A DNA stretch of 58,890 nt from a virus (Duplodnaviria; Caudoviricetes): positions 1-58,890 of the IMG/VR virus record IMGVR_UViG_3300049273_000019; one strand, given 5' to 3'. Under the pieces are notes generated by a model. It did no database searches. It worked only from the letters and a program-made list of their open reading frames with translations, and was not told the DNA's origin. Both the position numbers and the translations under genes were made by a program. Shown here piece by piece: positions 1 through 47,299 of the stretch. Position 1 is the first letter of the stretch; each line of letters opens with the position of its first letter.

Positions 1-168
1 CTAGTCCGCTGAGAACTCTGGGTTGATCCCCTCATGGTGAATCCGTGACAGCTCCTGAGAGATCACCAGCAGCGCCTTGACCTCGGCAATCTTCAACTTT
101 TGATCCACCGTCAAGTCCTTCGCCTCCTGCTCAGTTTCGCTGAGGTAGTCGAAGGTCTCGTGCCACAT
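1..168 (-). CDS. Small acidic hypothetical protein (55 aa)
   Basis: 3' part of ORF 1..426; ATG at 168 preceded by AGAAAGGGCGGG; helical, protein-like composition (MWHETFDYLSETEQ...). Confidence 0.55.
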   Translation of the reverse strand: MWHETFDYLSETEQEAKDLTVDQKLKIAEVKALLVISQELSRIHHEGINPEFSAD

Positions 169-220
169 ACTCACAGGCCCGCCCTTTCTGTCGCTGTTGC
201 GGACGTTCACGGTATCGCCG

Positions 221-700
221 CTAGCCCGGTAGCACGCCGCGCCACTCACGCGGGTCGTCCTCGCCTGACCGGCGCCAGTAAATGACGATGTCGCTAGACC
301 GCGACGTAAGCCGACGCTGCCACGAGAACGGGATGGTGTCTTGCGCGGCGATGGTCTGCGGGCCCGCACCAATAAGGCTGCCATCGACCTCGATCTCGAC
401 TTCAAAGGCGTCTTCGTCTGTGTCATTGGTCAGGGTGAACGTCGCGTCGCCTGTGCGTCCGAGAACCCATCGCTGTTCGTACCGGGCGGCGGCTTCGGCG
501 AGTTCGTTGGCACGGTCCGCAGCATCCGCTGAACGTTCCGATGCTGCGGCGGATCGCTCGGATGCATCGGCTGACCTTTTCGCCTCGCGGTTGGCATTGC
601 GCGATAGCCGAAGCGCCAGCCCGGACATCACTACGGAAGCAGCGATTGCGATCCAGGCTGCGGCATCGCCCCACTGAACTGCATCCCAAGGAATGTTCAT
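221..700 (-). CDS. Single-pass membrane protein (N-terminal TM, coiled coil, beta-rich C-terminus), moron-like
   Basis: WGDAAAWIAIAASVVMSGLAL TM segment, SA-x-A-x-ERSA coiled-coil repeats; same architecture as 24629..25237. Confidence 0.75.
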   Translation of the reverse strand: MNIPWDAVQWGDAAAWIAIAASVVMSGLALRLSRNANREAKRSADASERSAAASERSADAADRANELAEAAARYEQRWVLGRTGDATFTLTNDTDEDAFEVEIEVDGSLIGAGPQTIAAQDTIPFSWQRRLTSRSSDIVIYWRRSGEDDPREWRGVLPG

Positions 701-799
701 GGCGCTACGGTAAGTTCAAACGGCTCCGTCCGTAGTCAGCTCGGTCGGGGACCACTTGCGGCGGGGAGCATCCGATTGGGAGTTCCAGAGGCATAACAG

Positions 800-869
800 T
801 TGCATGCAATCCTCCACGAAGTTAAACAAAAACCGGAGTACAGCGCGATAAAGTCGCAGGTCAGGAAGT
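800..869 (+). promoter_or_regulatory. CRISPR leader (type I-E style)
   Basis: A-rich tract GAAGTTAAACAAAAACC, -10-like TAAAGT at 849-854, ends GCAGGTCAGGAAGT directly before repeat 1, as in actinobacterial I-E leaders; left boundary approximate. Confidence 0.75.
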
Positions 870-1202
870 GTGTTCCCCACGCACGTGGGGGTGATCCATC
901 ATGGGCTGGTCCCAAGAATCAATGCGCCGCGTGTTCCCCACGCACGTGGGGGTGATCCCGCGGACCCCAGGTCCACCGGTGCCACCGTGCTGTGTTCCCC
1001 ACGCACGTGGGGGTGATCCCCAGGACCAGATCAGGCCGTCGTCGGTGATGTCGTGTTCCCCACGCACGTGGAGGTGATCCGGGTGGGTGCCGTGGCTGAG
1101 GTAGTCCTGCCGCGTGTTCCCCACGCACGTGGGGGGATCCATGCGCTGTCAATCTCGGGTGGAAGAACCGTGCCTGTTCCCCGCGCACGCGGGGGTAATA
1201 CC
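870..1202 (+). CRISPR. Type I-E CRISPR array, 6 repeats and 5 spacers, no cas genes in window
   Basis: 28-bp repeat GTGTTCCCCACGCACGTGGGGGTGATCC at 870, 931, 992, 1053 (1 substitution), 1114 (1 deletion), degenerate terminal copy at 1174; five unique 33-bp spacers; 61-bp period. Confidence 0.97.
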
Positions 1203-1386
1203 GGCACGCTCGCCGGCGAACGGCTGAACGTCAGCCCGATGACCGCTGACGACCTAGCCGGCGGGGTGGCGCTGACTGACGCAGGGCCCGCCGATCAGCG
1301 TGACAGGTTGCTCTACGACCCACGCCCCGGAATCAAGGACCGTCTGTACTGGTCGAAAGAGATGCCCTGACCTCGGACACGAGTAA

Positions 1387-1421
1387 CCGGCCCCGCCTTC
1401 CAGTCGGAAGGGCGGGGCCGG
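1387..1421. terminator. GC-rich hairpin, probable bidirectional terminator between array and lysis operon
   Basis: CCGGCCCCGCCTTCC-AGTC-GGAAGGGCGGGGCCGG between convergent units. Confidence 0.7.
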
Positions 1422-1447
1422 CTCGGTGAAGAGGATGTGCTGCCAGC

Positions 1448-1624
1448 CTAACGCTGGCCGGTGCCCGGCCAGCACGACGGCGGGCGGAACCCAGGCTCAG
1501 GGTTTCCCTGCTGGCCGGGAGCGCACGGCTTGCTGGTCGCACCGTTCGGCTCGGATAACACGGGAGCACCGGAGACGGCCAGCAGAGCTCCAGCGACAGC
1601 CAAGACCGCGAGGAGTCGCTTCAT
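1448..1624 (-). CDS. 58-aa putative secreted peptide (not in ORF track)
   Basis: MKRLLAVLAVAGALLAVSGAPVLSEPNGATSKPCAPGQQGNPEPGFRPPSCWPGTGQR; strong RBS GGGGAGGTGA; signal-peptide-like N-terminus; two Cys. Confidence 0.7.
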   Translation of the reverse strand: MKRLLAVLAVAGALLAVSGAPVLSEPNGATSKPCAPGQQGNPEPGFRPPSCWPGTGQR

Positions 1625-1628
1625 CTGT

Positions 1629-1979
1629 TCACCTCCCCTCAGGACTGATCTCGATCAACGCCGACCGTGGACCGGAATACGTCTTGTTTGCCCACGACTG
1701 CGGCTGGATCTGAAAATCGATGGGCAGACCGGTCATCTGCTGGCCGAGCGCACAGAACGCCAGCGTGACCGCCGACAGCTTCTTGTTGCCCTCAGTGCCG
1801 TGAGGCTTGCCGAACTGAGACTCGAACTCGTCGTCCGGCAGGATCAGGCGCACGTCCACGTCCCGCCATGCCTTGCTGTCCAGCGACGACCCGACCTGGT
1901 AAGCGGTGTGGCCGAAGTAATCCTTGATGATCACACCGAACTTGTGCAGCCAGATACCGGCCGGCATCCCCGTACTCAT
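1629..1979 (-). CDS. Minimal nucleotidyltransferase-fold protein
   Basis: VGSSL..WRDVDVR (GS plus DxD) and downstream PIDFQ Asp; ATGA overlap with upstream gene. Confidence 0.65.
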   Translation of the reverse strand: MSTGMPAGIWLHKFGVIIKDYFGHTAYQVGSSLDSKAWRDVDVRLILPDDEFESQFGKPHGTEGNKKLSAVTLAFCALGQQMTGLPIDFQIQPQSWANKTYSGPRSALIEISPEGR

Positions 1980-2626
1980 GACTCGGAACCCGGAGTATTC
2001 CGGTACCGGTGCCGGCGACGCCAGAAATGCGCCGGCAGCCACAGCGCGGCAACTCCCACCAGGCCGCCGACCACTGCGAAGACCACCTCGACTTCAACGT
2101 TCGCGGTGATCATGTCTGTCCAGGTCTCCGTCACGGCGCTGCCGTCGGCGGCCGCCCAGATCTCCATACCGACCGGGACGAGGATCAACACAGTCGCGGC
2201 GAGGAACACCCGCCGCCACACCCTGCTCGGCCGGACCTGAGCGGGATCGCCTTCGTGTAAGGACGTGAACGCGGCGACCGTGCGGGCCGACTGCACCCCG
2301 TCTCGCGTGTCGTCCGGGTAGTGGATCCTGGTCCCCGGCCGGTTCGGGTAAACGGGCGGGCCAGTTTCCAGTCCCAGCGACAGCACCCAGCGTCCCAGGC
2401 CGCGCGCCACCCGGGCCGCCCGGCCTTCGCCGGTACGGGTTTCCAGCCACCGGCCCGCGCCGTACACCACGGCGGTGGCGACCACCGCGACGACCTCGAC
2501 CACCAGCGTCTGGTCCGCCGGCACCCCCAACGTGTTCAGGCGTAGCAGCGCCCACGCTGCGATATGACCAATAGCCAGCGGCCACAGCGTGCGGACCCAC
2601 GCAGCCAGCCGGTCAGGCAAGAACAT
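1976..2626 (-). CDS. Holin-like multi-TM membrane protein
   Basis: About 4 hydrophobic segments; downstream of endolysin; GGAGG RBS before ATG 2626. Confidence 0.65.
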   Translation of the reverse strand: MFLPDRLAAWVRTLWPLAIGHIAAWALLRLNTLGVPADQTLVVEVVAVVATAVVYGAGRWLETRTGEGRAARVARGLGRWVLSLGLETGPPVYPNRPGTRIHYPDDTRDGVQSARTVAAFTSLHEGDPAQVRPSRVWRRVFLAATVLILVPVGMEIWAAADGSAVTETWTDMITANVEVEVVFAVVGGLVGVAALWLPAHFWRRRHRYRNTPGSES

Positions 2627-2651
2627 GTGAACCTCCGGAGATGATGGACGC

Positions 2652-2870
2652 GTGGGCGTCCGCGAGACGTGCCCCGAGTGCGGGGCGAAGTGGTCACCGC
2701 GCCGGACCGAAGACCTGTGTCCGGGGTGTGGGCGGCCGTCCAGCACGGTGATCGAACAGGCACCGGTCCACTGCGGTACAGGGATGCTGCCGGGATACGA
2801 CGGACAGCGGAGGGTATGGCGCTGTGACGTGTGCGGGGCTCAGTCGAGCGGGCCCGCAGGTTCCCGATAA
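2652..2870 (+). CDS. Small Cys-rich (zinc-ribbon) protein, antisense to lysis operon
   Basis: CPEC, CPGC, HCG and CDVC motifs in 72 aa. Confidence 0.45.
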   Translation: MGVRETCPECGAKWSPRRTEDLCPGCGRPSSTVIEQAPVHCGTGMLPGYDGQRRVWRCDVCGAQSSGPAGSR

Positions 2871-3457
2871 CAGGGGCCGGCGTTGGTGTCGACCGTGCCG
2901 TCGGTGTACTCGACGCGCCAGCGCCAGTCACGGCCGTCCGCGCGGCGGCACTCGACGCCGGCGATACCGCGCCCGTCGGTGCCGTCCTCCCCCACCGGGC
3001 CGGCCGGTCCGGGCGGGCCAGTAGCTCCAGGCTCACCCGGTACGCCGCCGGCGCCGGGACTTCCCGCCGGGCCTGGTGATCCAGGTGGACCCGGCAGGCC
3101 ACGTTGCCCCTGGTCTCCCAGGCACGGCCCGCCATCAGCCGTGGTCCGGTCCGTGTACGTCACCTGCCAACGACCCGCGACGCACGCGACCCGCGAAACA
3201 CCCCGACCCGGCGGCCCAGCCGGACCCCGGAACTTGGGGTCGTCAAGCAGATCGGACGGATCCGGCGCGACCGGTGCCTGCCCACGGTCCCGGGCTGCCT
3301 TCTGTTCAGCGGCCAACGCTGAGGCGAGCGCGTTGACCTGCTCCGCCTGCACCTGAACCGCGTGCACGATCCACCCAATCAACACAGCGAGGATTGCCGC
3401 AGTGGCGACCCATGCCCAATCTCGCCACCCCCAGTACCGGACGCGTCGGATCATCAT
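2840..3457 (-). CDS. Membrane-anchored collagen-like protein (lysis cassette)
   Basis: N-terminal TM, G-X-Y repeats, GRGI..VEC...YTDG motif. Confidence 0.85.
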   Translation of the reverse strand: MMIRRVRYWGWRDWAWVATAAILAVLIGWIVHAVQVQAEQVNALASALAAEQKAARDRGQAPVAPDPSDLLDDPKFRGPAGPPGRGVSRVACVAGRWQVTYTDRTTADGGPCLGDQGQRGLPGPPGSPGPAGSPGAGGVPGEPGATGPPGPAGPVGEDGTDGRGIAGVECRRADGRDWRWRVEYTDGTVDTNAGPCYREPAGPLD

Positions 3458-3654
3458 CTCGGCTCCACGAATTTCAGCACGATGGTCACGATCAGGACGA
3501 TTACCGGGACGATGACGGACAGGATGAGCCGCCGCTCCAGCAGGTGGACCGCCTCACGGAGCTTCTCGGCTTCACGTTCCAGCCGGTCGATGTCCTTCTC
3601 ATGCCGCGCCTGGTTCCGTGCCAGCTCGGCTGTGGACATGTCATCGGGCACCAC
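3454..3654 (-). CDS. Small coiled-coil plus TM protein (lysis cassette)
   Basis: Coiled coil followed by C-terminal hydrophobic helix; overlaps neighbour. Confidence 0.75.
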   Translation of the reverse strand: MVPDDMSTAELARNQARHEKDIDRLEREAEKLREAVHLLERRLILSVIVPVIVLIVTIVLKFVEPR

Positions 3655-3680
3655 CGCCCCCTCTCAGGTGCGACGCGGCG

Positions 3681-4694
3681 CTACCGGTCTTGCCGCAGGG
3701 TCCACCGGCCGGACAGCACCTGCGGTGCAGGCCGGTCCGACGGTGAGTCCGCGGAAGGGAACACCGCCACTGACACGCGCAACAGGTGGTCGGTGCCGAG
3801 GTTCTTGGAGATGTTCGCGGTGGCGTACTGGCGACCCCCGGTCGCCGACGCATCAGCCACGATCTCAGACCAGCGGCCGACCGACTTCCCGTCTCGCCAG
3901 GTGTGCATGTCGTACCGGACCTGGTACGAGTCCCCCGGGACCAGACCCTCAAGTTCCAGTTGGGCCTGGGCGTCGACCCACCCGCTGGTCGGGGGGTTGT
4001 ATCCGGGGAACGCGCCGCCGTCACGGTGCGCGTTGCTGGGGTCTGCGTGCTCGGCGTCCCACAGGATCTCCACGAACCGGCCCCACGCCAGCGACTGCGG
4101 CTGGGTCTTGCCGAGGGATGTACGGATGGGCATGTCGTCCTCCTGGTCGATGAGCATCCCGGCGACCTCGGCGCGGAACTCGGGCATGTCGAAAGTCGGA
4201 TCCGGTTTCCCGGTGGTCGACCATTCCTTGTGACCGAGCACCCGGCCGGCTGGCCACCCTTCGTGCTGGCAAATCGCGGCGCACAGCGTCACGTACGCGT
4301 CGTACATCGCGGGCGGGTACGGGTCCCCGGAACCGTCGTCAGCCGCCTCAATGCCGATCGTCTTCCCGTTGCCGTACCAGCCCGGATACCCGGCCACGCG
4401 GGCGTTGCCGGTGCCCGCGTTGTTGGACACCCCGGACGCGACCACGTAGACGATCGCGTCCCGGGACAGGTAGTAGTTCGCGATAGGACCGGCGAGCCCT
4501 TCCCGGCCGTACGTGACGACGCGCAGGCCGCCGGCGGGGTAGCTGGAGGCGGACTCGGCGGTGTGGTGGCAGATCACCACTCTCGGATCCAGCGGCAACC
4601 CCCACCCGTCGATCAGGCCACCGCGGGTCTTCCACCCGTCGACCTCTTTGACTCGCAGGCCGGCGTCGCGGGCGACGTCCGCCAGCCACAGCAT
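3681..4694 (-). CDS. Endolysin, N-acetylmuramoyl-L-alanine amidase
   Basis: ICHHTA, IGIEA, GHKEW..GKPDP Amidase_2 motifs; start ATG 4694 (MLWLADVARDAGL). Confidence 0.92.
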   Translation of the reverse strand: MLWLADVARDAGLRVKEVDGWKTRGGLIDGWGLPLDPRVVICHHTAESASSYPAGGLRVVTYGREGLAGPIANYYLSRDAIVYVVASGVSNNAGTGNARVAGYPGWYGNGKTIGIEAADDGSGDPYPPAMYDAYVTLCAAICQHEGWPAGRVLGHKEWSTTGKPDPTFDMPEFRAEVAGMLIDQEDDMPIRTSLGKTQPQSLAWGRFVEILWDAEHADPSNAHRDGGAFPGYNPPTSGWVDAQAQLELEGLVPGDSYQVRYDMHTWRDGKSVGRWSEIVADASATGGRQYATANISKNLGTDHLLRVSVAVFPSADSPSDRPAPQVLSGRWTLRQDR

Positions 4695-4698
4695 CCGC

Positions 4699-4863
4699 TC
4701 ACCCACGACCCACCCCCTCGCCTGCGGCCTGGCCACCCTGGTCGCCGTGGTGGTCGTCCTCGAGTTCGTGGGCACACGCGTTCGGATCGTCGGAACCGCC
4801 TTCGGCCGCGAGCGCGTTCGGGTCGTCGGGGATGACGTCGGGTCCGTGATTGGGCTCGGACAT
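4699..4863 (-). CDS. 54-aa acidic protein upstream of endolysin (not in ORF track)
   Basis: MSEPNHGPDVIPDDPNALAAEGG...; GGAGG RBS. Confidence 0.55.
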   Translation of the reverse strand: MSEPNHGPDVIPDDPNALAAEGGSDDPNACAHELEDDHHGDQGGQAAGEGVGRG

Positions 4864-5000
4864 CAGGACCTCCCTGTTGAGTTGTCAAATGTCGGACAGT
4901 GATCCGACATGGACTGAGTGCTACCAGGCGTGTCCTACCGACGTGTCACCGTCGCCTCGCGCCGCGCACAGTGCCGGCGCGGTCGCCCGTGGAGCACCTC

Positions 5001-5576
5001 ATGGATTCGCGTTGTCTGCGCTACCTCGCACCCGCCCTGTTCGCCGCCGCCGTGCTGCTCGGACTGGCCTCGCCCGCACAAGCGGACGATGGATACGGCC
5101 GGTGGACTGGCACGACGGTCTGTGTCGACGATTGGACCCACGCCCCACGCTGGAAGGTCGCGGAAGCAACACATCGACTTGACGACGCGCTCAGCGTCGA
5201 TCTGATCTACAGCGCGGGGTGCGACGGGTACGACCAGGTGGTGACCGTCTACGACGGGAACTACGGCCTCCGGTACGGCCGGTGGACAGGGGTCGTGGAG
5301 TACGACAAGACGGCCGGTCGGATCGTTGGGGCGAGGGTGTTCCTGAACAACCGATACGCTCGGAACTGGACGCCTGACCAACTGGTCACGGTCACGATGC
5401 ACGAACTGATGCACGCCCTCGGAGCGGGGCACAACCACCGTCCGGACTCCGTCATGGGTCCGGCCCATACCGCGAAGCTGCACCGCGCGCCGACGGCGTA
5501 CGACGTGGCGGAGATGTACCGCCGGTACGCCCCGCCAGCACGCCTCGTACGGCCGGCCTGGAGGTACGTGCCCTAA
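5001..5576 (+). CDS. Secreted matrixin/metzincin zinc metalloprotease (moron)
   Basis: Signal peptide ending ASPAQA; HELMHALGAGH zinc motif; SVM Met-turn. Confidence 0.88.
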   Translation: MDSRCLRYLAPALFAAAVLLGLASPAQADDGYGRWTGTTVCVDDWTHAPRWKVAEATHRLDDALSVDLIYSAGCDGYDQVVTVYDGNYGLRYGRWTGVVEYDKTAGRIVGARVFLNNRYARNWTPDQLVTVTMHELMHALGAGHNHRPDSVMGPAHTAKLHRAPTAYDVAEMYRRYAPPARLVRPAWRYVP

Positions 5577-6169
5577 AACGGGATGACGCTGATCGTCCTG
5601 TTCTTGAACAGGACGGTTCCGCCTACGTTGAACTTCGCATACTCCAATTTGAAGTTATGCAAGCCCTCGTTCAGCCCTTTGCCGGCGTCGAGGAACGCAA
5701 ACGAAGTTGCCGAACCTGAGATACCGGCGGTGTGACCGAGGTACGCCGCGCTCTGGGTATCGATGAAACTGGACGAGCCAGAGACCCTCACCGCTGCGAA
5801 ACCGGCGTTATCCCCGGTTACCGCCAGCGAAACGGAAATCAGCACAATGCAACGCCGTGACGAGCCGATCGGCACGTCGGAGATCTGCGGCCCCACGGTC
5901 GCAAGGTCGCTCCACGTCGTGGACGTGACTTCCTCATCGGGGAGAACCGTCGCAGCGGCCTGTCCGAACGCGAGCGTCGCTAGATCCACAACCTGATCAG
6001 CAGCGTCGGCAATGGTCAGCCGGCCGCCTCTGATGTGCAGGCCCCCGGCACCGATCTGTGCCGCCTCCAGCCGGCGGGCCGCTTTGAGCTGCTGGACGTC
6101 CCGCTGGAGTTCGTGTAGTTGACGCACGACGTCGCCTTTGGAGAAAGCAGCGTCGGAGATCACTCCCAC
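5573..6169 (-). CDS. Minor tail protein
   Basis: N-terminal coiled coil plus beta-rich domain; end of tail module. Confidence 0.75.
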   Translation of the reverse strand: MGVISDAAFSKGDVVRQLHELQRDVQQLKAARRLEAAQIGAGGLHIRGGRLTIADAADQVVDLATLAFGQAAATVLPDEEVTSTTWSDLATVGPQISDVPIGSSRRCIVLISVSLAVTGDNAGFAAVRVSGSSSFIDTQSAAYLGHTAGISGSATSFAFLDAGKGLNEGLHNFKLEYAKFNVGGTVLFKNRTISVIPF

Positions 6170-6172
6170 AGG

Positions 6173-8851
6173 TCAGCCTTCCACCGCGAGCCAGCGGAAC
6201 GTGATCTGCGTGGTGATGACCGCGCCTGACGCGTCGAACCACCTGCTCCGGAACTTGGTCTCGTCGATGCCGTCGACCATGTGCTGATAGGGGCTGTTGC
6301 CGCCGCTGATCGGTGACTCCCCCTCCAGAGTGACGATCGCCGGCACGAAGCCCGAGTTGTGTGTGACCGTGAGGTACCCCGACGAGTTCGGCGTGCCGGT
6401 GACGGTTCCGGTCTTCACGAGTTTCTCCTCATCGATCGGACGGATGTCAGGGCCCGGTTGCAGCAGGATCGGGCGTACCCGGCCGTCCCTGGTGTCGAGT
6501 TCCCAGCCGATCACCCGGGCCTGCGTCTGGATGCGGTTCGGGTGACGGTGGCCGATCAGGTCCAGTCCGGCGTCGTCACCCAACAGCCAGTCCACGTTCA
6601 ACCGCGGACTGGCGTCCCACCTGGACAGGACCTGCCATGTCACCGACCCGCCAGCGAGCCGCGCCAGTTCGGCGGCTGCGTGCGCGTCCAGGTCGGCGAC
6701 CGTCAGCGGTGTCGACGACGTCGGCGTGAACCTGCGCTCCCACCTGGCCTTGCCGGCTGGTGTGCCGACTGCTGGGGTGGATTGTGGCCGGGCGGCGCCT
6801 TCGCCGATCCCTGTGGCGATCACGTAGTCGGCGGCGCGGCCGTCGGTGTGGTCTTCCACCAGTGTGTATGTGGCTTCGGAAGCGGCCCGTGATCCGAACA
6901 CGCTGGCGGCGGTCACCGTGAACACCGGGTTCGGCGTAGGGGACGCCGTGCCGATGCGCGGCCGAATGCGGATGATCTTCGCCACCGCTCTGCGCTCCGC
7001 CGTCACCCAGTCAAGGTCAACCGTCCACTCCGGACCATCCCGGACGGCCATCAGCTCCCGCAGCGCGCGGTACAACGACACGTCGTCCCGGTCGCGGTAG
7101 CCGCGGTTTCGGAGCCGACCGGTCGGCACCGCGTCGATGATGAAGTTGCCGCCGGCCTTGTTAGCTTCGGCGGCGAGACCAGCACCGATCACGCTCACTT
7201 CGTCGTGTGCCGTCCACGCGTGGTCTCCGACGTAGACGTGCTCCAGGTAGCCCTCGACCGAAACGCAGCCGAGTACGAGGTCAGCGTCAGTGCCACCACG
7301 GCGGATCATCGGGATGCCACCCCACGATGGGACGTCGTGGACCACCTGCACCAACATCGTCCGCCGCGGCGTCGTCGCGGATTCCAGCAGGTCGATCGGG
7401 ACGTGGCCGGGCCCGCTCAGCGGGATCGGCACTCGCAGCTCCGTACTGGTGTACGCGCCGAGTACCCGGGACGTAGGCCCCTGCACATCCGGCAGTTCGG
7501 CGATCACGTCGCCGGATTCGAATTGGCAGGCCAGCCAGGTGACCCTGGTCCGGATTTCGGCGTGTGCGACTGACGGTGGGGCAGCTGGTGGCGGTTCGGT
7601 GAGGTCGACGGTGACCGCGTGGGATCGCCACGGGATCGTGCCGACGTATCCGGTGGCCGTGACGGTGATGAAGTCGCCGGTGTCAGCGACGTCGACGATG
7701 CCGTACTGGTTCCGGCCCGGTAACCAGCCCAGGTCGTACTGTGATCCGCTGCCGGTGCTCGGTGTCGCGTCCAGGCCGGCGGCCTGGAAAATCGGGAAGT
7801 GGCCGTGTGGGTTCGCGGCTGCCGAGCACAGGCCCAGGGCGTGGCTGTCGGCGGTGATGCACCACATCTGGGTGGCCCACCCAGTGTCGGTGAGCATCTG
7901 CGCGATCTCGTCGCGTTCCACGGTGTACCCGCCGGACCACGAGTCGGGGATCGTCCCCAGCCAGGGCGTGGGGTTCAACCACACCAAGAATTCGGCGTCG
8001 CTGGTCTCCAGGACGTTGCGCATCCACGACTTCTGAGCGGTGCCCAACATCGTCTTGGCGGCCGTGTCCGGGTCACTGGAAGGGCTCCGGTCGCTACGGG
8101 TGTCGGACAGGATGAACAGCACCCGGCCGCGCTGCCACGACTGGTACACCGGTTGCGCCCCGGTACCTGCCGGCAACGCGAAGCTGGGCACCCGAAGCCG
8201 GTGCACGCGACACGCGTTGTCCCTGCCGGGCGCCGTCCTATCGGAGTCGTTGGGTCCGAAGTCATGGTCGTCCCAGATGTACGACCACGGCATGGCCTTC
8301 GCCAGCAGTTGCTGGTTCGGTTGGAGCAGGTTGTCGTCGATCAGCCGGTGGTACGTCGCCTCGGACGCGTCGGGGACGTACACCCCGGAACCGGGGTCGT
8401 AGTACGCCCAGTCACCGAGGTTGACGAAGAATCGGGGCGTCTTCGGGTGAGTCGCGATCGTCGCGAAAACCGGGTGATTTGACAAGCGGTTCGGGACGAG
8501 GACCGCGCCCTGCCCGGGGTACTGCGGTGTCGCACCCGCGTCACCGGCGACCGCGAACGCGAACGACTCTGGTTGACCAACCTGTCCAGCGGTGCGGAAT
8601 GTGCCAATCCAACTGGTATCGAGCACGCCGGCGTCCTCGACGCCGTACCAATGGTCGGTGACGGCCGGCAGCCCGGCGAGGTCGACGATCCCGGCCGAGT
8701 TCACCGTGGCGACTGGCCCGAAATACTCCGCGTTGGACAGGTCGGCGTTGGTGGCTACCACGATGCGGACGTCGCCCGTACCGGTCGCCTTGACCGAGAC
8801 CCGGGCGGTGGAGGATGTGACCCCGCCAGACCAGGCATTGACCGTCGTCAA
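6173..8851 (-). CDS. PhoD-like metallophosphoesterase fused to baseplate hub/minor tail protein
   Basis: NLGDWAYYD, WDDHDFGPND, DTRSDRS, TMLGTAQKSW and ADSH PhoD motifs (aa ~1-415); Pro-rich linker; then Gp37-like hub (WLACQFESGDVIAELP...GPEWTVD). Confidence 0.85.
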   Translation of the reverse strand: MTTVNAWSGGVTSSTARVSVKATGTGDVRIVVATNADLSNAEYFGPVATVNSAGIVDLAGLPAVTDHWYGVEDAGVLDTSWIGTFRTAGQVGQPESFAFAVAGDAGATPQYPGQGAVLVPNRLSNHPVFATIATHPKTPRFFVNLGDWAYYDPGSGVYVPDASEATYHRLIDDNLLQPNQQLLAKAMPWSYIWDDHDFGPNDSDRTAPGRDNACRVHRLRVPSFALPAGTGAQPVYQSWQRGRVLFILSDTRSDRSPSSDPDTAAKTMLGTAQKSWMRNVLETSDAEFLVWLNPTPWLGTIPDSWSGGYTVERDEIAQMLTDTGWATQMWCITADSHALGLCSAAANPHGHFPIFQAAGLDATPSTGSGSQYDLGWLPGRNQYGIVDVADTGDFITVTATGYVGTIPWRSHAVTVDLTEPPPAAPPSVAHAEIRTRVTWLACQFESGDVIAELPDVQGPTSRVLGAYTSTELRVPIPLSGPGHVPIDLLESATTPRRTMLVQVVHDVPSWGGIPMIRRGGTDADLVLGCVSVEGYLEHVYVGDHAWTAHDEVSVIGAGLAAEANKAGGNFIIDAVPTGRLRNRGYRDRDDVSLYRALRELMAVRDGPEWTVDLDWVTAERRAVAKIIRIRPRIGTASPTPNPVFTVTAASVFGSRAASEATYTLVEDHTDGRAADYVIATGIGEGAARPQSTPAVGTPAGKARWERRFTPTSSTPLTVADLDAHAAAELARLAGGSVTWQVLSRWDASPRLNVDWLLGDDAGLDLIGHRHPNRIQTQARVIGWELDTRDGRVRPILLQPGPDIRPIDEEKLVKTGTVTGTPNSSGYLTVTHNSGFVPAIVTLEGESPISGGNSPYQHMVDGIDETKFRSRWFDASGAVITTQITFRWLAVEG

Positions 8852-20955: not shown

Positions 20956-21064
20956 AACGGGGCCTCCCAGGGGCCGAATGGAAAGTGAGATAGGACGGAC
21001 GCCTCATGGCACTGACCGGAGTGATCTCATACGGTGGCGACCTGTTCACTGCCTGGAGGCATCG

Positions 21065-21550
21065 ATGACCGACACACCATCGGCCGTTCGGAAATCCCTT
21101 AGCCCACTCGTGATCGCTTTGGCGGCGCTCGTCATCTCGCTGGCCGTGGCCGCAATCGTCCTCGTGCGACTCATCGGAGACTCGGACCCGACGAGGACGG
21201 TGTTCCAGCATCCAGACTTCGACGTGTACGGATCGATCGAACTCAACGACGGTTACAACAAGTGGGAGCCGGATACCCCGTGCGCTGCGAAGTCGGGCTA
21301 CGACGACGTCCAGGAAGGAACCGAGGTGGTTATCAGCGACGCGGCCGGCACGACGTTGGCAGTCGGTCAACTTGAGGCGGGGAAGGTCGTACGCAGTGAG
21401 GCTGGATTCAACGTGTGCGAGTTCAGGTTTCAGGTCTCGGGTGTCCCAGGTGGACACTCCACATATCGTGTCGAGATTTCTGATCGAGGCGATTTCCACT
21501 ACAACCAAGATGAAATGACACGTGGGGTCGTCCTATACCTCGGTTTCTGA
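21065..21550 (+). CDS. Membrane-anchored extracytoplasmic protein (antisense moron)
   Basis: ATG 21065 after GGAGG; N-terminal TM; GYDDV..G..V.I.DAAG, C.F.F.V.GVP, Y.VEIS.RG. Confidence 0.8.
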   Translation: MTDTPSAVRKSLSPLVIALAALVISLAVAAIVLVRLIGDSDPTRTVFQHPDFDVYGSIELNDGYNKWEPDTPCAAKSGYDDVQEGTEVVISDAAGTTLAVGQLEAGKVVRSEAGFNVCEFRFQVSGVPGGHSTYRVEISDRGDFHYNQDEMTRGVVLYLGF

Positions 21551-24628: not shown

Positions 24629-25237
24629 ATGCCGATCATCGTCACCGCGGTCGAGTGGGGTACGGCGCCCGACTGGGTGGCAGCAGTGGGCAGTGTTGGC
24701 GCCATGTTCCTGGTGGGTGGCGGCCTGCTCTGGGAAGTTCATCGGCGCCGGGTCGACGATGAGCGATTGGCGGTTGAGCGTCGCGACGACGAAGCCTCAC
24801 AGGCTCGACTCGTCACCCTCCAAGCAGAGGGGCATCCGGCGACGGATTGGCGGGGCGATCCGTTAGGTGGCGATCCGTTGAATGGTGTCACTGCCGTGGA
24901 AGTCACGGTGACCAACGACAGCAGTGCGCCGATTCTCAACCTCGATCTACGTGAGCTGCGGTTCGCTGCCGACGACGTGGACTACTCCGGCCAAGCGGCT
25001 ACGTCCGACTCCCGCATGCACCTTCGACTTGCTGCCCACTCCAACTGGACGGCAAGTTTCCACTTCAGCTCACCGCGTCCACTGTCGGAAGGACCCCGCT
25101 ACCGGTACCAGCTTGAATTCACCGATGCTCACGGCCGGCGGTGGCGTCGCCGTGGGACTGAGCAACCCGTCAGAGTCATCAACGCACCAGCGGTGACTCC
25201 CGACAACCGCGACGAAGGCGACCTCCAACCGACCTGA
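24629..25237 (+). CDS. Single-pass membrane protein (antisense moron between terL and portal)
   Basis: WGTAPDWVAAVGSVGA TM; SQARLV; FTDAHGRRWRR. Confidence 0.75.
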   Translation: MPIIVTAVEWGTAPDWVAAVGSVGAMFLVGGGLLWEVHRRRVDDERLAVERRDDEASQARLVTLQAEGHPATDWRGDPLGGDPLNGVTAVEVTVTNDSSAPILNLDLRELRFAADDVDYSGQAATSDSRMHLRLAAHSNWTASFHFSSPRPLSEGPRYRYQLEFTDAHGRRWRRRGTEQPVRVINAPAVTPDNRDEGDLQPT

Positions 25238-28633: not shown

Positions 28634-28709
28634 GGTGGCGGGGGCAGGATTTGAACCTGCGACCTCTGGGTTATGAGCCCAGCGAGCTAACCGGCTGCTC
28701 TACCCCGCT
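28634..28709 (-). tRNA. tRNA-Met(CAT), initiator type
   Basis: AGCGGGGTAGAGCAGCCGGTTAGCTCGCTGGGCTCATAACCCAGAGGTCGCAGGTTCAAATCCTGCCCCCGCCACC; three G-C pairs in anticodon stem; unpaired A1/C72; ends CC without terminal A. Confidence 0.95.
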
Positions 28710-29965: not shown

Positions 29966-30063
29966 CTTTCTCTTGTCCGTGACAAGGGAAAGCCTATCAA
30001 TAACCCTTGTCCTAGACAAGAGTTATTGGTAAACTTGCAGGTGACACGGACAAGAGAAGGGAG
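29966..30063. promoter_or_regulatory. Mirror-symmetric bidirectional promoter/operator 1
   Basis: Palindrome AATAACCCTTGTC-CTA-GACAAGAGTTATT; plus strand TTGTCC-17-TAAACT, minus strand TTGTCT-17-TAGGCT; leader motif 30 bp either side of centre 30013. Confidence 0.8.
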
Positions 30064-31319: not shown

Positions 31320-31402
31320 TTGTCCGTGTCTGCGTTAAGCATACCCGAAAACCCTTGCATAAAGCAAGGGTTTTCGGGTAAACTCAGAGGTGACACGGAC
31401 AA
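31320..31402. promoter_or_regulatory. Mirror-symmetric bidirectional promoter/operator 2
   Basis: 17-bp perfect arms TACCCGAAAACCCTTGC-ATAAA-GCAAGGGTTTTCGGGTA; TTGCAT-18-TAAACT (+) and TTGCTT-18-TATGCT (-); GACACGGACAA symmetric on both sides. Confidence 0.85.
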
Positions 31403-32243: not shown

Positions 32244-32303
32244 AAAACCCTTGCTTCATGCAAGGGTTTTCGGTACCATGGAACCAGACACGGACAAGGG
32301 AGG
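32244..32303 (+). promoter_or_regulatory. Promoter/operator 3 with leader motif
   Basis: AAAACCCTTGC-TTCAT-GCAAGGGTTTT; TTGCTT-17-TACCAT; GACACGGACAAGGGAGG. Confidence 0.8.
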
Positions 32304-34296: not shown

Positions 34297-35439
34297 TCAA
34301 TTCGCGAAGAGAGTGCCGAGCAGGTGTACCGGTGACCGATCCAGGGCACACCGCGAACGGTCGTACCGGCGTGTGGTCCGCGGGTCGGCGTGTCCCAGGT
34401 AGTCCTGCACATCCGGCAGCGTGGCACCGCGTTCCAGCGCGGCCGTGGCCGCTGTGTGCCGCAGCGAGTGAGGCGACAGCGCGGCGGCCTGGGGGATGCC
34501 AGCGGCCCGCGCGGTACGTCGCACCAGCCGGAACAGGTACGGCTGGGTGAGCCGCGCACCGGTGGAGGTGGCGAACAACGGGCCCGCCAACCCAGCGACG
34601 GTGACACCGGCCCGGCCGGCGCGGTCCTCCAGGTACGCGTCGAGGTCCCTACCAACCGCCGCCGGGATCGGCAGTTCCCGCCGACGGTTCCCCTTGCCGC
34701 GCACAGTGAGGGTGCGATGCCCGGCGTTGTGTCGCACGTCAGCCACGTCGGCGCGGAGGAGTTCGCCGACACGGAGTCCCAAGTCCAAGAGCATGCCGAG
34801 CATGGCGACGTTGCGCTGCGCCTGGCGGGTCGCGTCGGCGCGGGCAGCGGCAAGGAACTCCCTCGCCTGGCCGATGGTCAGCCACGCCGTCGACGACGTG
34901 TCGTGATCCACCTTCGGGCGTTTGACCGCCTTGACCGGGTTGACGGTGGCGGCCTCATTGTCGATCAGGTAGCTGTACCACGAACTGACTGCGGACAGCC
35001 GACGCGCGACCGTGGACTTCGCGGGTGGCGGATTCGTGCGGGTGGCCAGGCGCCGGGTGTACGTGTCGACGTCGGCCCGGCGTACAGCCAGTGGATCCAG
35101 GTCGGCCGCGGCGCACCAGGCGAGCCAGTCGGCCAGGTCCCGGAAGTACGCCCTGCGGGTGTGGTCGGAGGCGAACTGGGCAAGCCAGGCCGCGGTGAGT
35201 CCGGCCGGGGTATACCGGGCATCCGGTGCGGTGTCGGGCAGCGGCAGGGTGAGGACGGCGCGGACGATGTCCTGGTCGGTGGTGGCACCGGTGCGGGGGC
35301 GTGGCAGCCGGCTCACGGTCCGCTTAAGGCCTGCCGTGGCGGGCGGGGGTTCGGTAGCGGTGGCAATACGGCCGGTGACGGCAGCGGTGTCATGATCGGT
35401 TAAGGCCACGGATGCATGATAAGGGTAATTATCATGCAT
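34297..35439 (-). CDS. Tyrosine recombinase, XerC/D-like (true start may be GTG 35408 or later)
   Basis: GLRVGEL, VRGKG, PHSLRH, LGHADPRTTRRY: full catalytic set; N-terminal core-binding domain. Confidence 0.93.
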   Translation of the reverse strand: MHDNYPYHASVALTDHDTAAVTGRIATATEPPPATAGLKRTVSRLPRPRTGATTDQDIVRAVLTLPLPDTAPDARYTPAGLTAAWLAQFASDHTRRAYFRDLADWLAWCAAADLDPLAVRRADVDTYTRRLATRTNPPPAKSTVARRLSAVSSWYSYLIDNEAATVNPVKAVKRPKVDHDTSSTAWLTIGQAREFLAAARADATRQAQRNVAMLGMLLDLGLRVGELLRADVADVRHNAGHRTLTVRGKGNRRRELPIPAAVGRDLDAYLEDRAGRAGVTVAGLAGPLFATSTGARLTQPYLFRLVRRTARAAGIPQAAALSPHSLRHTAATAALERGATLPDVQDYLGHADPRTTRRYDRSRCALDRSPVHLLGTLFAN

Positions 35440-46283: not shown

Positions 46284-47299
46284 GAGGCTCCTTGGACGAG
46301 ACGTAGGTGACTGCCGGGCAGGCGCCGGCGGCATGCGAAGCAGGCTGGGGTGCCGTCGGGTCGACGGCGGTTGGGGAGTCCGTGGGCGCAGCGGGCGGGT
46401 TGCAGTTCGACGACGCCGGCCGGCGGCTCGGGCGTCTTCTCTTCCCCCTCAAAATTTGGATCTTGGGGGCTCGCGCGCGCGACACCGTGAGGTTGTGTGT
46501 CTACCTCAGTAGTGGTGGAGGTTAGGTCTTGTGATTGGTCCTGGAAGTTACTGCGGAACGCCGTTCCCCGTACAACAGGAACGCCGTTCCCCGTACAACC
46601 GTCGTTTGGGGGAACGCCGTTCCCCGTACAAGTTTCGGCAGGGTCCGGTTGTACGGGGTCTACCGTTCCCTGTACAAGCGGGTTATCCACAGGTGGTACG
46701 GGGTCCCCCATTCCCCGTACAACGGCCGGGTCTCGTTCTCGTACGGGGACCGTCGTTCCCTGTACAACGGTCGACTCTCGTCCTTGTACAGGGTCTCCTA
46801 CGCCGACACCAACGAGGCGGTGTCCTGACGGTCCGCGCCTCCCGCCCTGTTGACGCGTAGGTGTCAACGGCGCGGCGGGTTTCCCCGAACCGCTTCCCGG
46901 ATCGCGGTCGGCTGGCGGAGTGCGCCGCCGGTTCGCCCCCCGGATCCGCTCCGACTCCATCTCGAACTGGCCCGGGGTGAACACGTCCACCTTGTCCAGC
47001 ACCCGGGCTGCGAGGACCAGGCGGTATTCGTTCGCGCCGCCACGGCGCCGCGCACCGGCCCGCACCAGTTCCAGTAATCCGACGGTGAGCAGTTCCTTGA
47101 TGGCTTTCTTGGCGGTCTTGTAGTCCACCTCAGCCGCCACGGCGATCGTGGCCAGGCCGGGGTATATCCGCCGGCCGGTGGACCAGTCGGCGTACGTGGC
47201 CACCACCACGGCGACGCCTTTCACCGTCCGTCCCAGGCGGGCGCGTCTTACGACGTCGAGCCACTCCCGCACCGAGACGTCCTCTTCGGCCATCGGCAT
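46280..47299 (-). CDS. Replication initiator (winged-HTH)
   Basis: ATYADWSTGRRIYPGLATIA...L...GLL...NEYRL; internal repeats; C-terminal CAHG...CFACR. Confidence 0.8.
   Translation of the reverse strand: MPMAEEDVSVREWLDVVRRARLGRTVKGVAVVVATYADWSTGRRIYPGLATIAVAAEVDYKTAKKAIKELLTVGLLELVRAGARRRGGANEYRLVLAARVLDKVDVFTPGQFEMESERIRGANRRRTPPADRDPGSGSGKPAAPLTPTRQQGGRRGPSGHRLVGVGVGDPVQGRESTVVQGTTVPVRERDPAVVRGMGDPVPPVDNPLVQGTVDPVQPDPAETCTGNGVPPNDGCTGNGVPVVRGTAFRSNFQDQSQDLTSTTTEVDTQPHGVARASPQDPNFEGEEKTPEPPAGVVELQPARCAHGLPNRRRPDGTPACFACRRRLPGSHLRLVQGAS
46555..46795. repeat. Iteron cluster with DnaA box: putative replication origin
   Basis: Three exact 21-bp GGAACGCCGTTCCCCGTACAA (46555, 46578, 46611), further TTCCC(C/T)GTACAA copies, inverted GTAC(G/A)GGG copies; TTATCCACA at 46683-46691. 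Confidence 0.85.

What the first reader, a model, noticed from the sequence alone, without database searches (positions are those of the whole stretch)
800..1421. Orphan type I-E CRISPR array with intact leader at the distal end of a prophage lysis module
Seen: a leader, 6 repeats and 5 unique 33-bp spacers, transcribed toward the lysis operon and sharing a hairpin (1387-1421) with it. No cas gene occurs in 59 kb. The gene on its other side (221..700) has the same architecture as a moron inside the head module (24629..25237). First spacer bases vary (A,C,C,G,A), as expected when a PAM-derived base is captured during I-E acquisition. Established: some phages carry cas-less mini-arrays that borrow host Cascade against rival elements. 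Inference: this prophage uses host I-E machinery against competitors and, because it keeps a leader, may still acquire spacers. I found no full-length spacer match in the window by eye.
Basis: partly seen in the sequence, partly recalled or inferred. Interest (0 to 1): 0.85.

Follow-up and report, generated by a model that had tools for sequence, protein, structure and literature searches.

The report
Cas-less CRISPR array beside prophage lysis genes
A real six-repeat type I-E CRISPR array with a normal-looking leader, but no cas genes, sits just past the lysis genes of an actinomycete prophage and is probably phage cargo, a rare but already known kind of arrangement.

Summary
The array is real: a leader (701-869), six repeats (870-1201, + strand) and five unique 33-nt spacers, followed by a strong hairpin (1387-1421) shared with the convergent late/lysis operon. 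Five cas families were sought in the 58.9-kb record and none was found. The leader-repeat junction matches the junction motif found in 58 of 401 genomes of the family reached through Actinoallomurus liliacearum.

The window is a whole IMG/VR 'provirus' cut from an 891-kb contig. The array lies only 870 nt from a computed edge, and I could not see the flank, so whether the phage carries it is not proven. I put it at about 0.6.

Evidence for phage carriage:
- The gene beyond the array (224-700) belongs to a family that sits as a moron inside the head module of two related phages.
- One Logan unitig joins array and phage, and breaks 86 nt outside the record edge.
- A second JGI contig holds genes from both flanks.

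No spacer target was found in any collection searched. The 'same architecture' claim for 24629-25237 fails a profile test.

Cas-less arrays in prophages are known, so this is a new member of a known kind.

The parts
4..168 (-). 55-aa ORF, the last gene of the record. Its stop codon is window bases 1-3. It has no known family.
   Evidence: Translation. No Pfam or PHROG hit for the enclosing ORF and no tblastn hit in GenBank phages. The exact protein is on 2 JGI contigs, the longest 891,425 nt.
224..700 (-). 159-aa membrane-anchored protein: N-terminal WGDAAAW motif plus TM helix, an Ala/Ser-rich coil, and a beta-rich C-domain. It belongs to a small family of cargo genes of mobile elements.
   Evidence: Found. 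Family profile A1 hits 13 of 171 family genomes. Full-length member P0003 (BLASTP E 1e-10) is an opposite-strand moron in the head module of related phage contig L122. G166 and G092 copies lie beside a related prophage, an integrase and FtsK-like genes.
701..869 (+). CRISPR leader (GC 0.56). The conserved leader-repeat junction box GATAAAGTCGCAGGTCAGGAAGT occupies 847-869.
   Evidence: Leader alignment A3 with 10 arrays from family genomes. Junction motif in 58 of 401 genomes against 4 control hits. No sigma-70 consensus promoter was called.
870..1201 (+). Type I-E-style array. R1 870-897, S1 898-930, R2 931-958, S2 959-991, R3 992-1019, S3 1020-1052, R4 1053-1080 (stem mismatch), S4 1081-1113, R5 1114-1140 (1-nt deletion), S5 1141-1173, R6 1174-1201 (diverged, compensatory stem pair).
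   Evidence: The repeat folds into a 7-bp stem with a 4-nt loop. The nearest genomic repeat, with 1 mismatch, is the A. liliacearum array consensus.
1202..1386 (+). Trailer between the last repeat and the hairpin. The ORF-like frame ending at 1370 has no relatives.
   Evidence: 132 candidates, none scoring E <= 0.01.
1387..1421 (.). GC-rich hairpin between the convergent array and late operon. It is a likely two-way terminator without a U-tract.
   Evidence: -45 and -42.2 kcal/mol, z -5.35 and -5.37. Not called by the consensus scan.
1451..1624 (-). 58-aa secreted or lipoprotein-like peptide, the last gene of the - strand late/lysis run.
   Evidence: Translation. The exact protein is on 2 JGI contigs, like the two genes on the far side of the array.
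1632..1979 (-). 116-aa protein, a mobile moron. The motif GS...DVDV suggests a minimal nucleotidyltransferase (my reading of the sequence; no family hit).
   Evidence: Relatives found in 10 IMG/VR contigs at varied positions. No Pfam or PHROG hit.
1979..4775 (-). Distal end of the late operon: a 256-aa ORF with hydrophobic stretches (1979-2746), a collagen-like protein (2843-3457), a small TM protein (3457-3654) and an amidase_2 endolysin (3684-4775).
   Evidence: Pfam and PHROG results: endolysin phrog_880 at E 4e-39, collagen repeat at 2e-7. Translations.

Best explanation
This is a genuine type I-E CRISPR array (leader, six repeats, five spacers) that most likely travels as cargo in the distal 'moron' region of a temperate tailed phage. 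The phage is integrated in a soil actinomycete of the family reached through Actinoallomurus liliacearum.

The array has no cas genes of its own. It would be transcribed from its leader toward the end of the late/lysis operon and stopped by the shared hairpin. The pre-crRNA would then be cut by the host's Cas6e and loaded into host Cascade. Lysogens would thus gain immunity against whatever the five spacers match, presumably rival phages or plasmids.

The leader junction is of the host type, and the three leader-proximal repeats are identical while the distal ones are decayed. The array has therefore most likely grown by ordinary Cas1-Cas2 adaptation and could still do so.

Shown: the array, its polarity, leader homology, absence of cas genes, and physical linkage to the phage.
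Inferred: location inside the prophage, use of host Cas proteins, and any immune function.
For: Array anatomy and polarity.

Leader homology to large and cas-adjacent arrays.

No cas genes in the record.

Host-type I-E systems with near-identical repeats exist in the family. The A. liliacearum consensus differs by 1 mismatch, and Cas6e is present in 4 of 5 genomes checked. In the likely source run a second contig ends in a similar leader plus repeat, and a loose end shows the same repeat followed by a different spacer.

Phage context. Endolysin, tail, head, terminase, RecET and integrase genes fill the record.

Evidence that the far flank is phage-lineage DNA:
- The 159-aa gene's family has a full-length member (P0003, E 1e-10) as an opposite-strand moron inside the head module of related phage contig L122, which shares MCP at 56% and g21555 at 58%.
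- A C-domain homolog occupies the same slot in the related G166 prophage, and a full-length copy lies 4.2 kb past that prophage's endolysin.
- In G092 the family gene abuts a tyrosine integrase that is 39% identical to the window's.

Linkage. A single X1 unitig runs from 86 nt left of the record edge through the array into the phage, with no break between array and lysis genes. The 55-aa, 159-aa and 58-aa proteins are each on 2 JGI contigs.

Precedent. Contigs L124 and L125 carry an I-E-type 3-repeat mini-array between the portal and major head genes. Prophage-located arrays in C. difficile are expressed (PMC4556805, passages read).
Against: - The array is 870 nt from a computed provirus edge. 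The two genes beyond it are orphans with no PHROG or Pfam hit and no hit in GenBank phages.
- No att repeat was found in the window.
- The only integrase sits in the middle of the record, so the prophage ends are undefined.
- Short leader-bearing arrays are common in host genomes of this family. My regex found arrays in 17 of the 30 junction loci fetched, and 11 of those had 1-8 repeats.
- In G166 the family gene lies beyond a tRNA-Asn and next to XRE and FtsK genes, so it may belong to a second element.
- No close relative of the phage carries the array, and 0 other IMG/VR contigs hold the exact repeat or the leader-junction pattern.
- No protospacer was found.
- R4 and R5 are damaged, so only S1, S2 and one side of S3 are flanked by intact repeats.
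- The 29th base is non-canonical in 4 of 5 spacers.
Confidence: 0.6

Rival explanations
1. The array is a host chromosomal 'distant' I-E array, far from the cas operon, that happens to lie next to the prophage attachment site. The provirus caller ran about 1.4 kb too far. The true phage-host junction would then lie between the last repeat and the 58-aa gene.
For: Family genomes hold many leader-bearing arrays, often short and remote from cas genes. G064's 6-repeat array is on a different contig from its cas locus. The record edges fall at gene borders, as a gene-based caller would set them. The left 1.4 kb has the lowest GC in the record and holds orphan genes. Chromosomal arrays that work in trans are common (PMC7145637, passages read).
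Against: The far-side gene's family is found in phage head modules and beside integrases, not in conserved host loci. No DNA match to 1-833 or 1219-1808 appeared among the 150 listed matches in 201 family genomes; 415 further matches were not listed. The X1 unitig does not break between array and phage but 86 nt outside the record edge. No tRNA fragment or att-like repeat lies in 1202-1450.
Confidence: 0.22
2. The array and the two genes to its left belong to a second mobile element, such as an integrative conjugative element, that abuts the prophage. The array would be mobile cargo, but not this phage's.
For: In G166 the family gene lies past a tRNA-Asn and is followed by XRE and FtsK/SpoIIIE genes. 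In G092 it abuts an integrase and an FtsK fragment. G064's 6-repeat mini-array, with a similar leader and mixed 29th bases, lies beside type IV secretion genes: pilin, TrbL, PrgI, a VirB4-like ATPase and a coupling protein.
Against: Only about 870 nt and two small genes lie left of the array in the record. No conjugation or integration gene is visible there. Full-length or C-domain family members sit inside phage head modules in L122 and G166.
Confidence: 0.12
3. Wherever it lies, the array is no longer an immune device. It is either a decaying relic or a source of repeat RNAs that titrate or mis-load host Cas6e/Cascade, as a decoy or RNA anti-CRISPR that protects the prophage lineage.
For: R4, R5 and R6 are damaged. 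No target was found for any spacer. Four of 5 spacers have a non-canonical 29th base. A related prophage region in G010 carries 6-7 I-E-like hairpins with 21-25-nt 'spacers', which cannot be normal crRNAs. The RNA anti-CRISPR concept is recalled from memory and was not read here.
Against: Spacers are full length and unique. The period is exactly 61 nt. R1-R3 and the leader junction are intact, as in working arrays. Missing targets are normal for soil spacers, and IMG/VR and metagenomes were not searched with the spacers.
Confidence: 0.1

Closest known systems
Prophage-located, cas-less CRISPR arrays of Clostridioides difficile (type I-B)
   Same: Multi-spacer arrays inside prophage regions with no cas genes of their own. 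They have conserved leaders like those of chromosomal arrays and are served in trans by chromosomal Cas proteins. Five of the 12 arrays of strain 630 lie in prophage regions and all 12 are expressed (PMC4556805, passages read).
   Different: Type I-B in a Firmicute, with expression and interference shown experimentally. Here the type is I-E in an uncultured actinomycete, nothing has been tested, and the location inside the prophage is not proven.
Virus-borne mini-CRISPR arrays (Sulfolobales viruses SPV1/SPV2; phage and prophage mini-arrays of Faure et al. 2019)
   Same: Cas-less arrays on viral genomes whose repeats match the host's, thought to exclude rival viruses. The SPV arrays have host-like leaders (PMC6858448, passages read).
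   Different: Those arrays hold 1-2 spacers and their spacers hit related viruses. Bacteriophage mini-arrays are reported to have leaders unlike the host's (PMC7099407 and PMC6858448, passages read; Faure 2019 itself was not read). Here there are five spacers, a host-type leader junction and no known target.
Chromosomal 'distant' or orphan arrays working in trans
   Same: Short arrays far from cas genes with repeats compatible with a Cas system elsewhere in the genome. Orphan arrays average 8 repeats and distant arrays 13 (PMC7145637, passages read).
   Different: Those arrays are host DNA. That paper found 212 CRISPRs in 26,987 prophages, so a prophage location would be unusual.
I-E-type mini-array in IMG/VR phage contigs L124 and L125
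   Same: High-GC phage with a 28-nt repeat of the same family (GTGTTCCCCGCGCACGCGGGGGTGTTCC), 33-nt spacers, no cas genes in the 11.7 kb of L124 that I fetched, and the array on the strand opposite the structural genes.
   Different: It has three repeats, lies between the portal and head genes so it is unambiguously inside the phage, and has no canonical junction box abutting the first repeat.

Membership tests
Type I-E CRISPR array | 28-29-nt repeat with the I-E consensus (GTGTTCCCC...GGGG... handle) that forms a short stem-loop | tested here: met
   The repeat folds into a 7-bp stem with a 4-nt loop. It differs by 1 mismatch from the array consensus of A. liliacearum, whose arrays flank a Cas6e gene on the same contig. 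No Rfam hit.
Type I-E CRISPR array | Unique spacers of 32-33 nt, giving a 61-nt period | tested here: met
   Spacing is 61, 61, 61, 61, 60 nt with five different spacers.
Type I-E CRISPR array | AT-richer leader with a conserved leader-repeat junction upstream of the first repeat | tested here: met
   Leader alignment A3. Junction motif in 58 of 401 family genomes against 4 control hits. Leader GC is 0.56 against about 0.67 for the record.
Type I-E CRISPR array | PAM-derived, near-constant last repeat base (29th position) | tested here: not met
   The bases are A, C, C, G, A here, against G in 132 of 147 spacers of six large arrays of this repeat type. This bears on how the spacers were acquired rather than on whether it is an array.
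Type I-E CRISPR array | Cognate Cas6e, Cascade, Cas3 and Cas1-2 in the same cell, and mature crRNAs | not testable with these tools
   None in the record. No RNA run was found; the run search asked for DNA and returned 2 DNA runs.
Virus-borne cas-less (mini-)CRISPR array | Lies within the boundaries of the viral genome | tested here: inconclusive
   Phage genes lie on one side and a phage-lineage moron-family gene on the other. Unitig and contig linkage supports this. No att sites were found and the flank was not seen.
Virus-borne cas-less (mini-)CRISPR array | No cas genes on the element, and repeats matching the host's arrays | tested here: met
   No cas genes. A similar leader plus repeat, and the same repeat with another spacer, occur in other contigs of the likely source run. 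It is not shown that those contigs come from the same organism.
Virus-borne cas-less (mini-)CRISPR array | Spacers match related viruses or other mobile elements, not the carrier | tested here: not met
   No self-match. No target in GenBank phages or PLSDB plasmids, where all listed hits were repeat-driven. None in 21 genus genomes for S1, 161 family genomes each for S2-S4, or 301 for S5. IMG/VR and metagenomes were not searched with the spacers.

The most novel reading that the evidence does not exclude
A temperate actinophage carries an adaptation-competent type I-E array. Its leader junction is of the host type, and its leader-proximal repeats have been renewed while the distal ones decayed. 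The prophage would then be a portable immune memory that keeps growing in each host it lysogenises. It would form one end of a spectrum of I-E repeat cargo on mobile elements in this actinomycete family: a 3-repeat array in a phage head module (L124), a 6-repeat array beside conjugation genes (G064), and short-spacer hairpin clusters beside a related prophage (G010). Bacteriophage mini-arrays described so far are reported to lack host-like leaders.
Probability: 0.25. Interest if true: 0.7.

Novelty: new member of a known kind. Interest (0 to 1): 0.5.

Why it matters
If the phage carries it, this would be a type I-E, actinobacterial example of a prophage that lends its host ready-made CRISPR memory. 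Unlike the phage mini-arrays described so far, it has a host-type leader and so could go on acquiring spacers. That bears on how immune memory moves between strains and on phage-against-phage competition in soil. I found no report of such an I-E case in Actinobacteria, but only one search addressed that point. If it is merely host flank, the lesson is practical: computed provirus edges can pull in neighbouring arrays, and claims of phage-borne CRISPR need att-level evidence.

Tried and rejected
Reaching the host flank. All routes failed. The one read-laying run showed only 86 nt beyond position 1.

Att sites. No direct repeat links the array flanks, the integrase flanks, the tRNA-Met or the record ends.

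Close relatives of the phage.
- The endolysin has no close relative in IMG/VR.
- The PhoD-like tail protein and the nucleotidyltransferase-like gene gave only mosaic relatives.
- Six family genomes have portals at 56-59% identity but share only head and tail-shaft genes.

Spacer targets. None is convincing. The best ungapped matches are 27 of 33, one of them inside a phosphoglycerate kinase gene. Per genome only 3-5 first-look candidates were scored in most of these searches, so weak hits can be missed.

The profile test was negative.

The trailer ORF has no relatives. The protein atlas gave only unnamed actinobacterial clusters. Rfam gave no hit.

No RNA run was available, so expression is untested.

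Genome G126 was flagged as unpublished.

Supplements of the papers were closed and not seen. The tables of Faure 2019 and of PMC7145637 may list similar I-E prophage arrays.

Full report
WHAT IS THERE

The window is an entire IMG/VR 'provirus' record of 58,890 nt, with a CheckV completeness of 71%. At 870-1201 on the + strand lie six direct repeats with a 61-nt period. The unit is GTGTTCCCCACGCACGTGGGGGTGATCC, 28 nt long, and it folds into a 7-bp stem with a 4-nt loop. The repeats are separated by five different 33-nt spacers.

R1-R3 are identical. R4 has one change in the 3' half of the stem. R5 has lost one base. R6 differs at six positions, two of which are a compensatory pair (A..T to G..C) that preserves the stem. 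Decay toward the 3' end, the repeat orientation, and a lower-GC stretch upstream (701-869, GC 0.56) all fix the polarity. The leader is on the left, and transcription runs rightward toward a strong hairpin at 1387-1421 (-45 kcal/mol, z -5.4 on both strands).

On the other strand the phage's late genes arrive from the right:
- endolysin at 3684-4775 (phrog_880, E 4e-39);
- a small TM protein, a collagen-like protein and a 256-aa ORF with hydrophobic stretches;
- a mobile 116-aa gene at 1632-1979;
- a 58-aa secreted peptide ending at 1448.

The hairpin has no U-tract and the consensus scan did not call it.

IS IT A I-E ARRAY WITH A REAL LEADER?

The exact repeat occurs in one place among the species genomes scanned: contig 7 of Actinoallomurus liliacearum JCM 17938. 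The arrays there have a consensus one mismatch away, and they flank a Cas6e gene.

With that genome as centre, the last ~25 nt of the window's leader (GATAAAGTCGCAGGTCAGGAAGT) align with leaders of arrays of 22-34 repeats and with a cas-adjacent array. The junction motif, allowing up to 2 mismatches, occurs in 58 of 401 genomes of the family, against 4 hits of the reversed control. The leader is thus of the family's normal type.

No Cas1, Cas7e, Cas6e, I-E Cas2 or Cas3 HD domain is encoded in the record.

THE PAM-BASE ARGUMENT IS REVERSED

In six multi-spacer arrays of this repeat type the base after the 28-nt repeat is G in 132 of 147 spacers. In arrays of a sister repeat type it is nearly always C: 22 of 24 and 23 of 24 in two arrays, and all 15 repeat copies of a third carry it. 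A near-constant base is what PAM-derived capture gives.

The window's A, C, C, G, A (1 G in 5) has a binomial P of about 5e-4 under the large-array frequency. It points to non-canonical acquisition: naive, slipped, or by recombination. A 6-repeat orphan array in genome G064 shows the same mixed pattern of G, C, C, C, T.

WHAT THE RECORD IS

Nearly all genes run on the - strand. From right to left they are:
- early genes, including RecE and RecT at 54.9-56.8 kb, RusA and regulators;
- a tyrosine integrase at 34300-35439;
- tRNA-Met at 28634-28709;
- TerL, portal, protease, major capsid, tape measure and tail genes, then lysis.

Both record ends fall exactly on gene borders, as a gene-based provirus caller would leave them. 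The 159-aa protein encoded at 224-700 and other proteins of the record are on a JGI contig of 891,425 nt. The phage is therefore integrated, and the edge 870 nt from the array is a computed one.

I could not reach the parent contig. No att-like direct repeat joins the array flanks, the integrase flanks, the tRNA or the record ends. The integrase in the middle of a co-oriented early-to-late phage is unexplained. Relatives G187 and G202 have much less DNA between those modules.

IS THE ARRAY INSIDE THE PROPHAGE?

Evidence for:

(1) The gene beyond the array (224-700) is membrane-anchored, with a WGDAAAW motif, a coil and a beta-rich C-domain. It belongs to a small family found in 13 of 171 family genomes by profile.
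- A full-length member, P0003 (BLASTP E 1e-10), lies on IMG/VR contig L122. It is an opposite-strand moron between the g21555 homolog (58% identical) and the protease (51%) of a head module related to the window's, whose MCP is 56% identical.
- In genome G166, whose prophage has a portal 59% identical to the window's, a 91-aa homolog of the family's C-domain sits in the same head-module slot.
- In the same genome a full-length copy lies 4.2 kb past that prophage's endolysin.
- In G092 the family gene abuts a tyrosine integrase 39% identical to the window's.

(2) In the likely source run X1, a single Logan contig of 28,751 nt covers window 1-8000 with no difference. It starts 86 nt left of position 1. 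There is no break between array and phage, and the break coincides with the IMG/VR edge.

(3) The 55-aa, 159-aa and 58-aa proteins, which lie on both sides of the array, are each on 2 JGI contigs. The integrase, RecT and the head moron are each on 1. Run X2, from another study, holds array and phage pieces with 0 differences.

(4) I-E-type mini-arrays do occur inside high-GC phages. Contigs L124 and L125 carry three repeats between the portal and the major head protein.

Evidence against:
- The left genes are orphans.
- Short leader-bearing arrays are frequent in host genomes.
- In G166 a tRNA-Asn and then XRE and FtsK genes suggest that the family gene may belong to a second, adjoining element.
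- No other IMG/VR contig holds the exact repeat or the leader-junction pattern.

I put carriage by this prophage at about 0.6, host flank at about 0.22, and a neighbouring element at about 0.12.

FUNCTION

No spacer matches any of the following:
- the record itself;
- GenBank phages;
- PLSDB plasmids, where only repeat-driven hits were listed;
- 21 genus genomes for S1;
- 161 family genomes each for S2-S4;
- 301 family genomes for S5.

The best ungapped matches are 27 of 33, and one lies in a housekeeping gene. IMG/VR and metagenomes were not searched with the spacers, for the reason given under Tried and rejected.

Only S1 and S2 are flanked by intact repeats. The mechanism is therefore inferred: host Cas6e processing, Cascade loading, and interference against unknown elements. 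Past growth by adaptation is inferred from the repeat pattern.

COMPARISON WITH WHAT IS KNOWN

Cas-less arrays in prophages are documented.
- In C. difficile 630, 5 of 12 arrays lie in prophage regions, and all 12 are expressed with conserved leaders (PMC4556805, passages).
- Mini-arrays of 1-2 spacers on archaeal viruses and on phages and prophages target relatives. The phage cases reportedly lack host-like leaders (PMC6858448 and PMC7099407, passages).
- A survey found 212 CRISPRs in 26,987 prophages (PMC7145637, passages).
- Regulatory mini-arrays in prophages are described in bioRxiv 10.1101/2023.03.03.530964 (passages).

The present case would be a I-E, actinobacterial member with five spacers and a host-type leader. 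My searches turned up no report of such a I-E case in Actinobacteria. They cover only the held library, and supplements were closed.

VERDICT

This is a new member of a known kind, of moderate interest, and it hinges on one check: the flank of the parent contig or virion DNA.

Noticed in passing
window 34300-35439 (-), with 28.7-36.4 kb around it: The only integrase (tyrosine type, phrog_1 at E 1e-40) lies in the middle of the record, between co-oriented early and late modules. No att-like repeat was found. Relatives G187 and G202 have much less DNA between these modules, so this may be a nested integrative element, or an integrase not used for this integration.
   Followed up: partly
window 28634-28709 (-): tRNA-Met lies upstream of the terminase region. 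If colinear, the X1 Logan unitig that starts 86 nt left of the record ends about 31 nt into this tRNA.
   Followed up: partly
window 46555-46768: Five copies of a 22-nt unit (GGAACGCCGTTCCCCGTACAAC) are interleaved with four copies of a 27-nt unit. They look like iterons, an origin, or partition or regulator binding sites.
   Followed up: no
window 30000-30053, 31348-31402, 32244-32297: Three copies of a roughly 55-nt composite element (palindrome AAAACCCTTGC...GCAAGGGTTTT plus GGTAAACT..GACACGGACAA) lie upstream of + strand genes. They look like repeated promoter or operator sites of an immunity region.
   Followed up: no
window 1632-1979 (-): A 116-aa gene is 69-76% identical to genes in five IMG/VR contigs and 40-46% identical to genes in five more. 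Only the gene itself is conserved at DNA level, and it sits at different genome positions. It is a mobile moron. The motif GS..DVDV suggests a minimal nucleotidyltransferase.
   Followed up: partly
window 24629-25237 (+) and about 21060-21550 (+): Two opposite-strand ORFs with N-terminal TM segments lie inside the head module. The second occupies the slot that holds the 159-aa-family moron in L122 and G166.
   Followed up: partly
window 6176-8851 (-): An 892-aa tail-region protein has a PhoD-like phosphodiesterase domain (Pfam E 1e-12; phrog_24476 E 7e-105).
   Followed up: no
L045:10044-10394 (G010:C22, about 97.3 kb): Beside a prophage related to the window's, 6-7 I-E-repeat-like hairpins (CCCCGC-N4-GCGGGG plus ATGNTCC) are separated by only 21-25 nt and followed by a terminator-like hairpin. 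They lie between a phrog_10886 regulator and xis-like and integrase genes. G010 has Cas6e elsewhere. This may be a decoy or regulatory repeat RNA.
   Followed up: partly
L075/L018 (G064:C2, about 237.2 kb), with L062 and L063: A six-repeat orphan I-E array with a leader like the window's and 29th bases G, C, C, C, T lies between a WYL regulator and methyltransferase on one side and a type IV secretion module on the other. It is on a different contig from G064's cas locus, and the repeat handle there differs at 2 positions.
   Followed up: partly
L124:2781-2930 and L125:548-697: Two IMG/VR contigs (46,783 and 6,777 nt) carry an identical three-repeat I-E-type mini-array on the strand opposite the structural genes. 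In L124 it lies between the portal (phrog_332) and the major head protein. L125 carries a TerL homolog about 2 kb from the array.
   Followed up: partly
L128:4126-4340 (IMG/VR contig of 35,025 nt): A four-repeat array has a repeat identical to the window's R1 apart from the R6-type stem pair. It has a leader-like junction (ATAAACTAGCAGCTCAATAAGT) and the first three spacers start with C, T, G. It lies 2.4 kb from a DNA primase gene, and the contig GC is 0.55.
   Followed up: partly
window 1174-1201: The terminal repeat carries the G..C stem form typical of other arrays of the family (G064, L128), whereas R1-R5 share the A..T form. This suggests the first repeat changed once and was then copied by later acquisitions. 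A low-depth X1 contig shows R6-like repeats in another array (table 5c).
   Followed up: no
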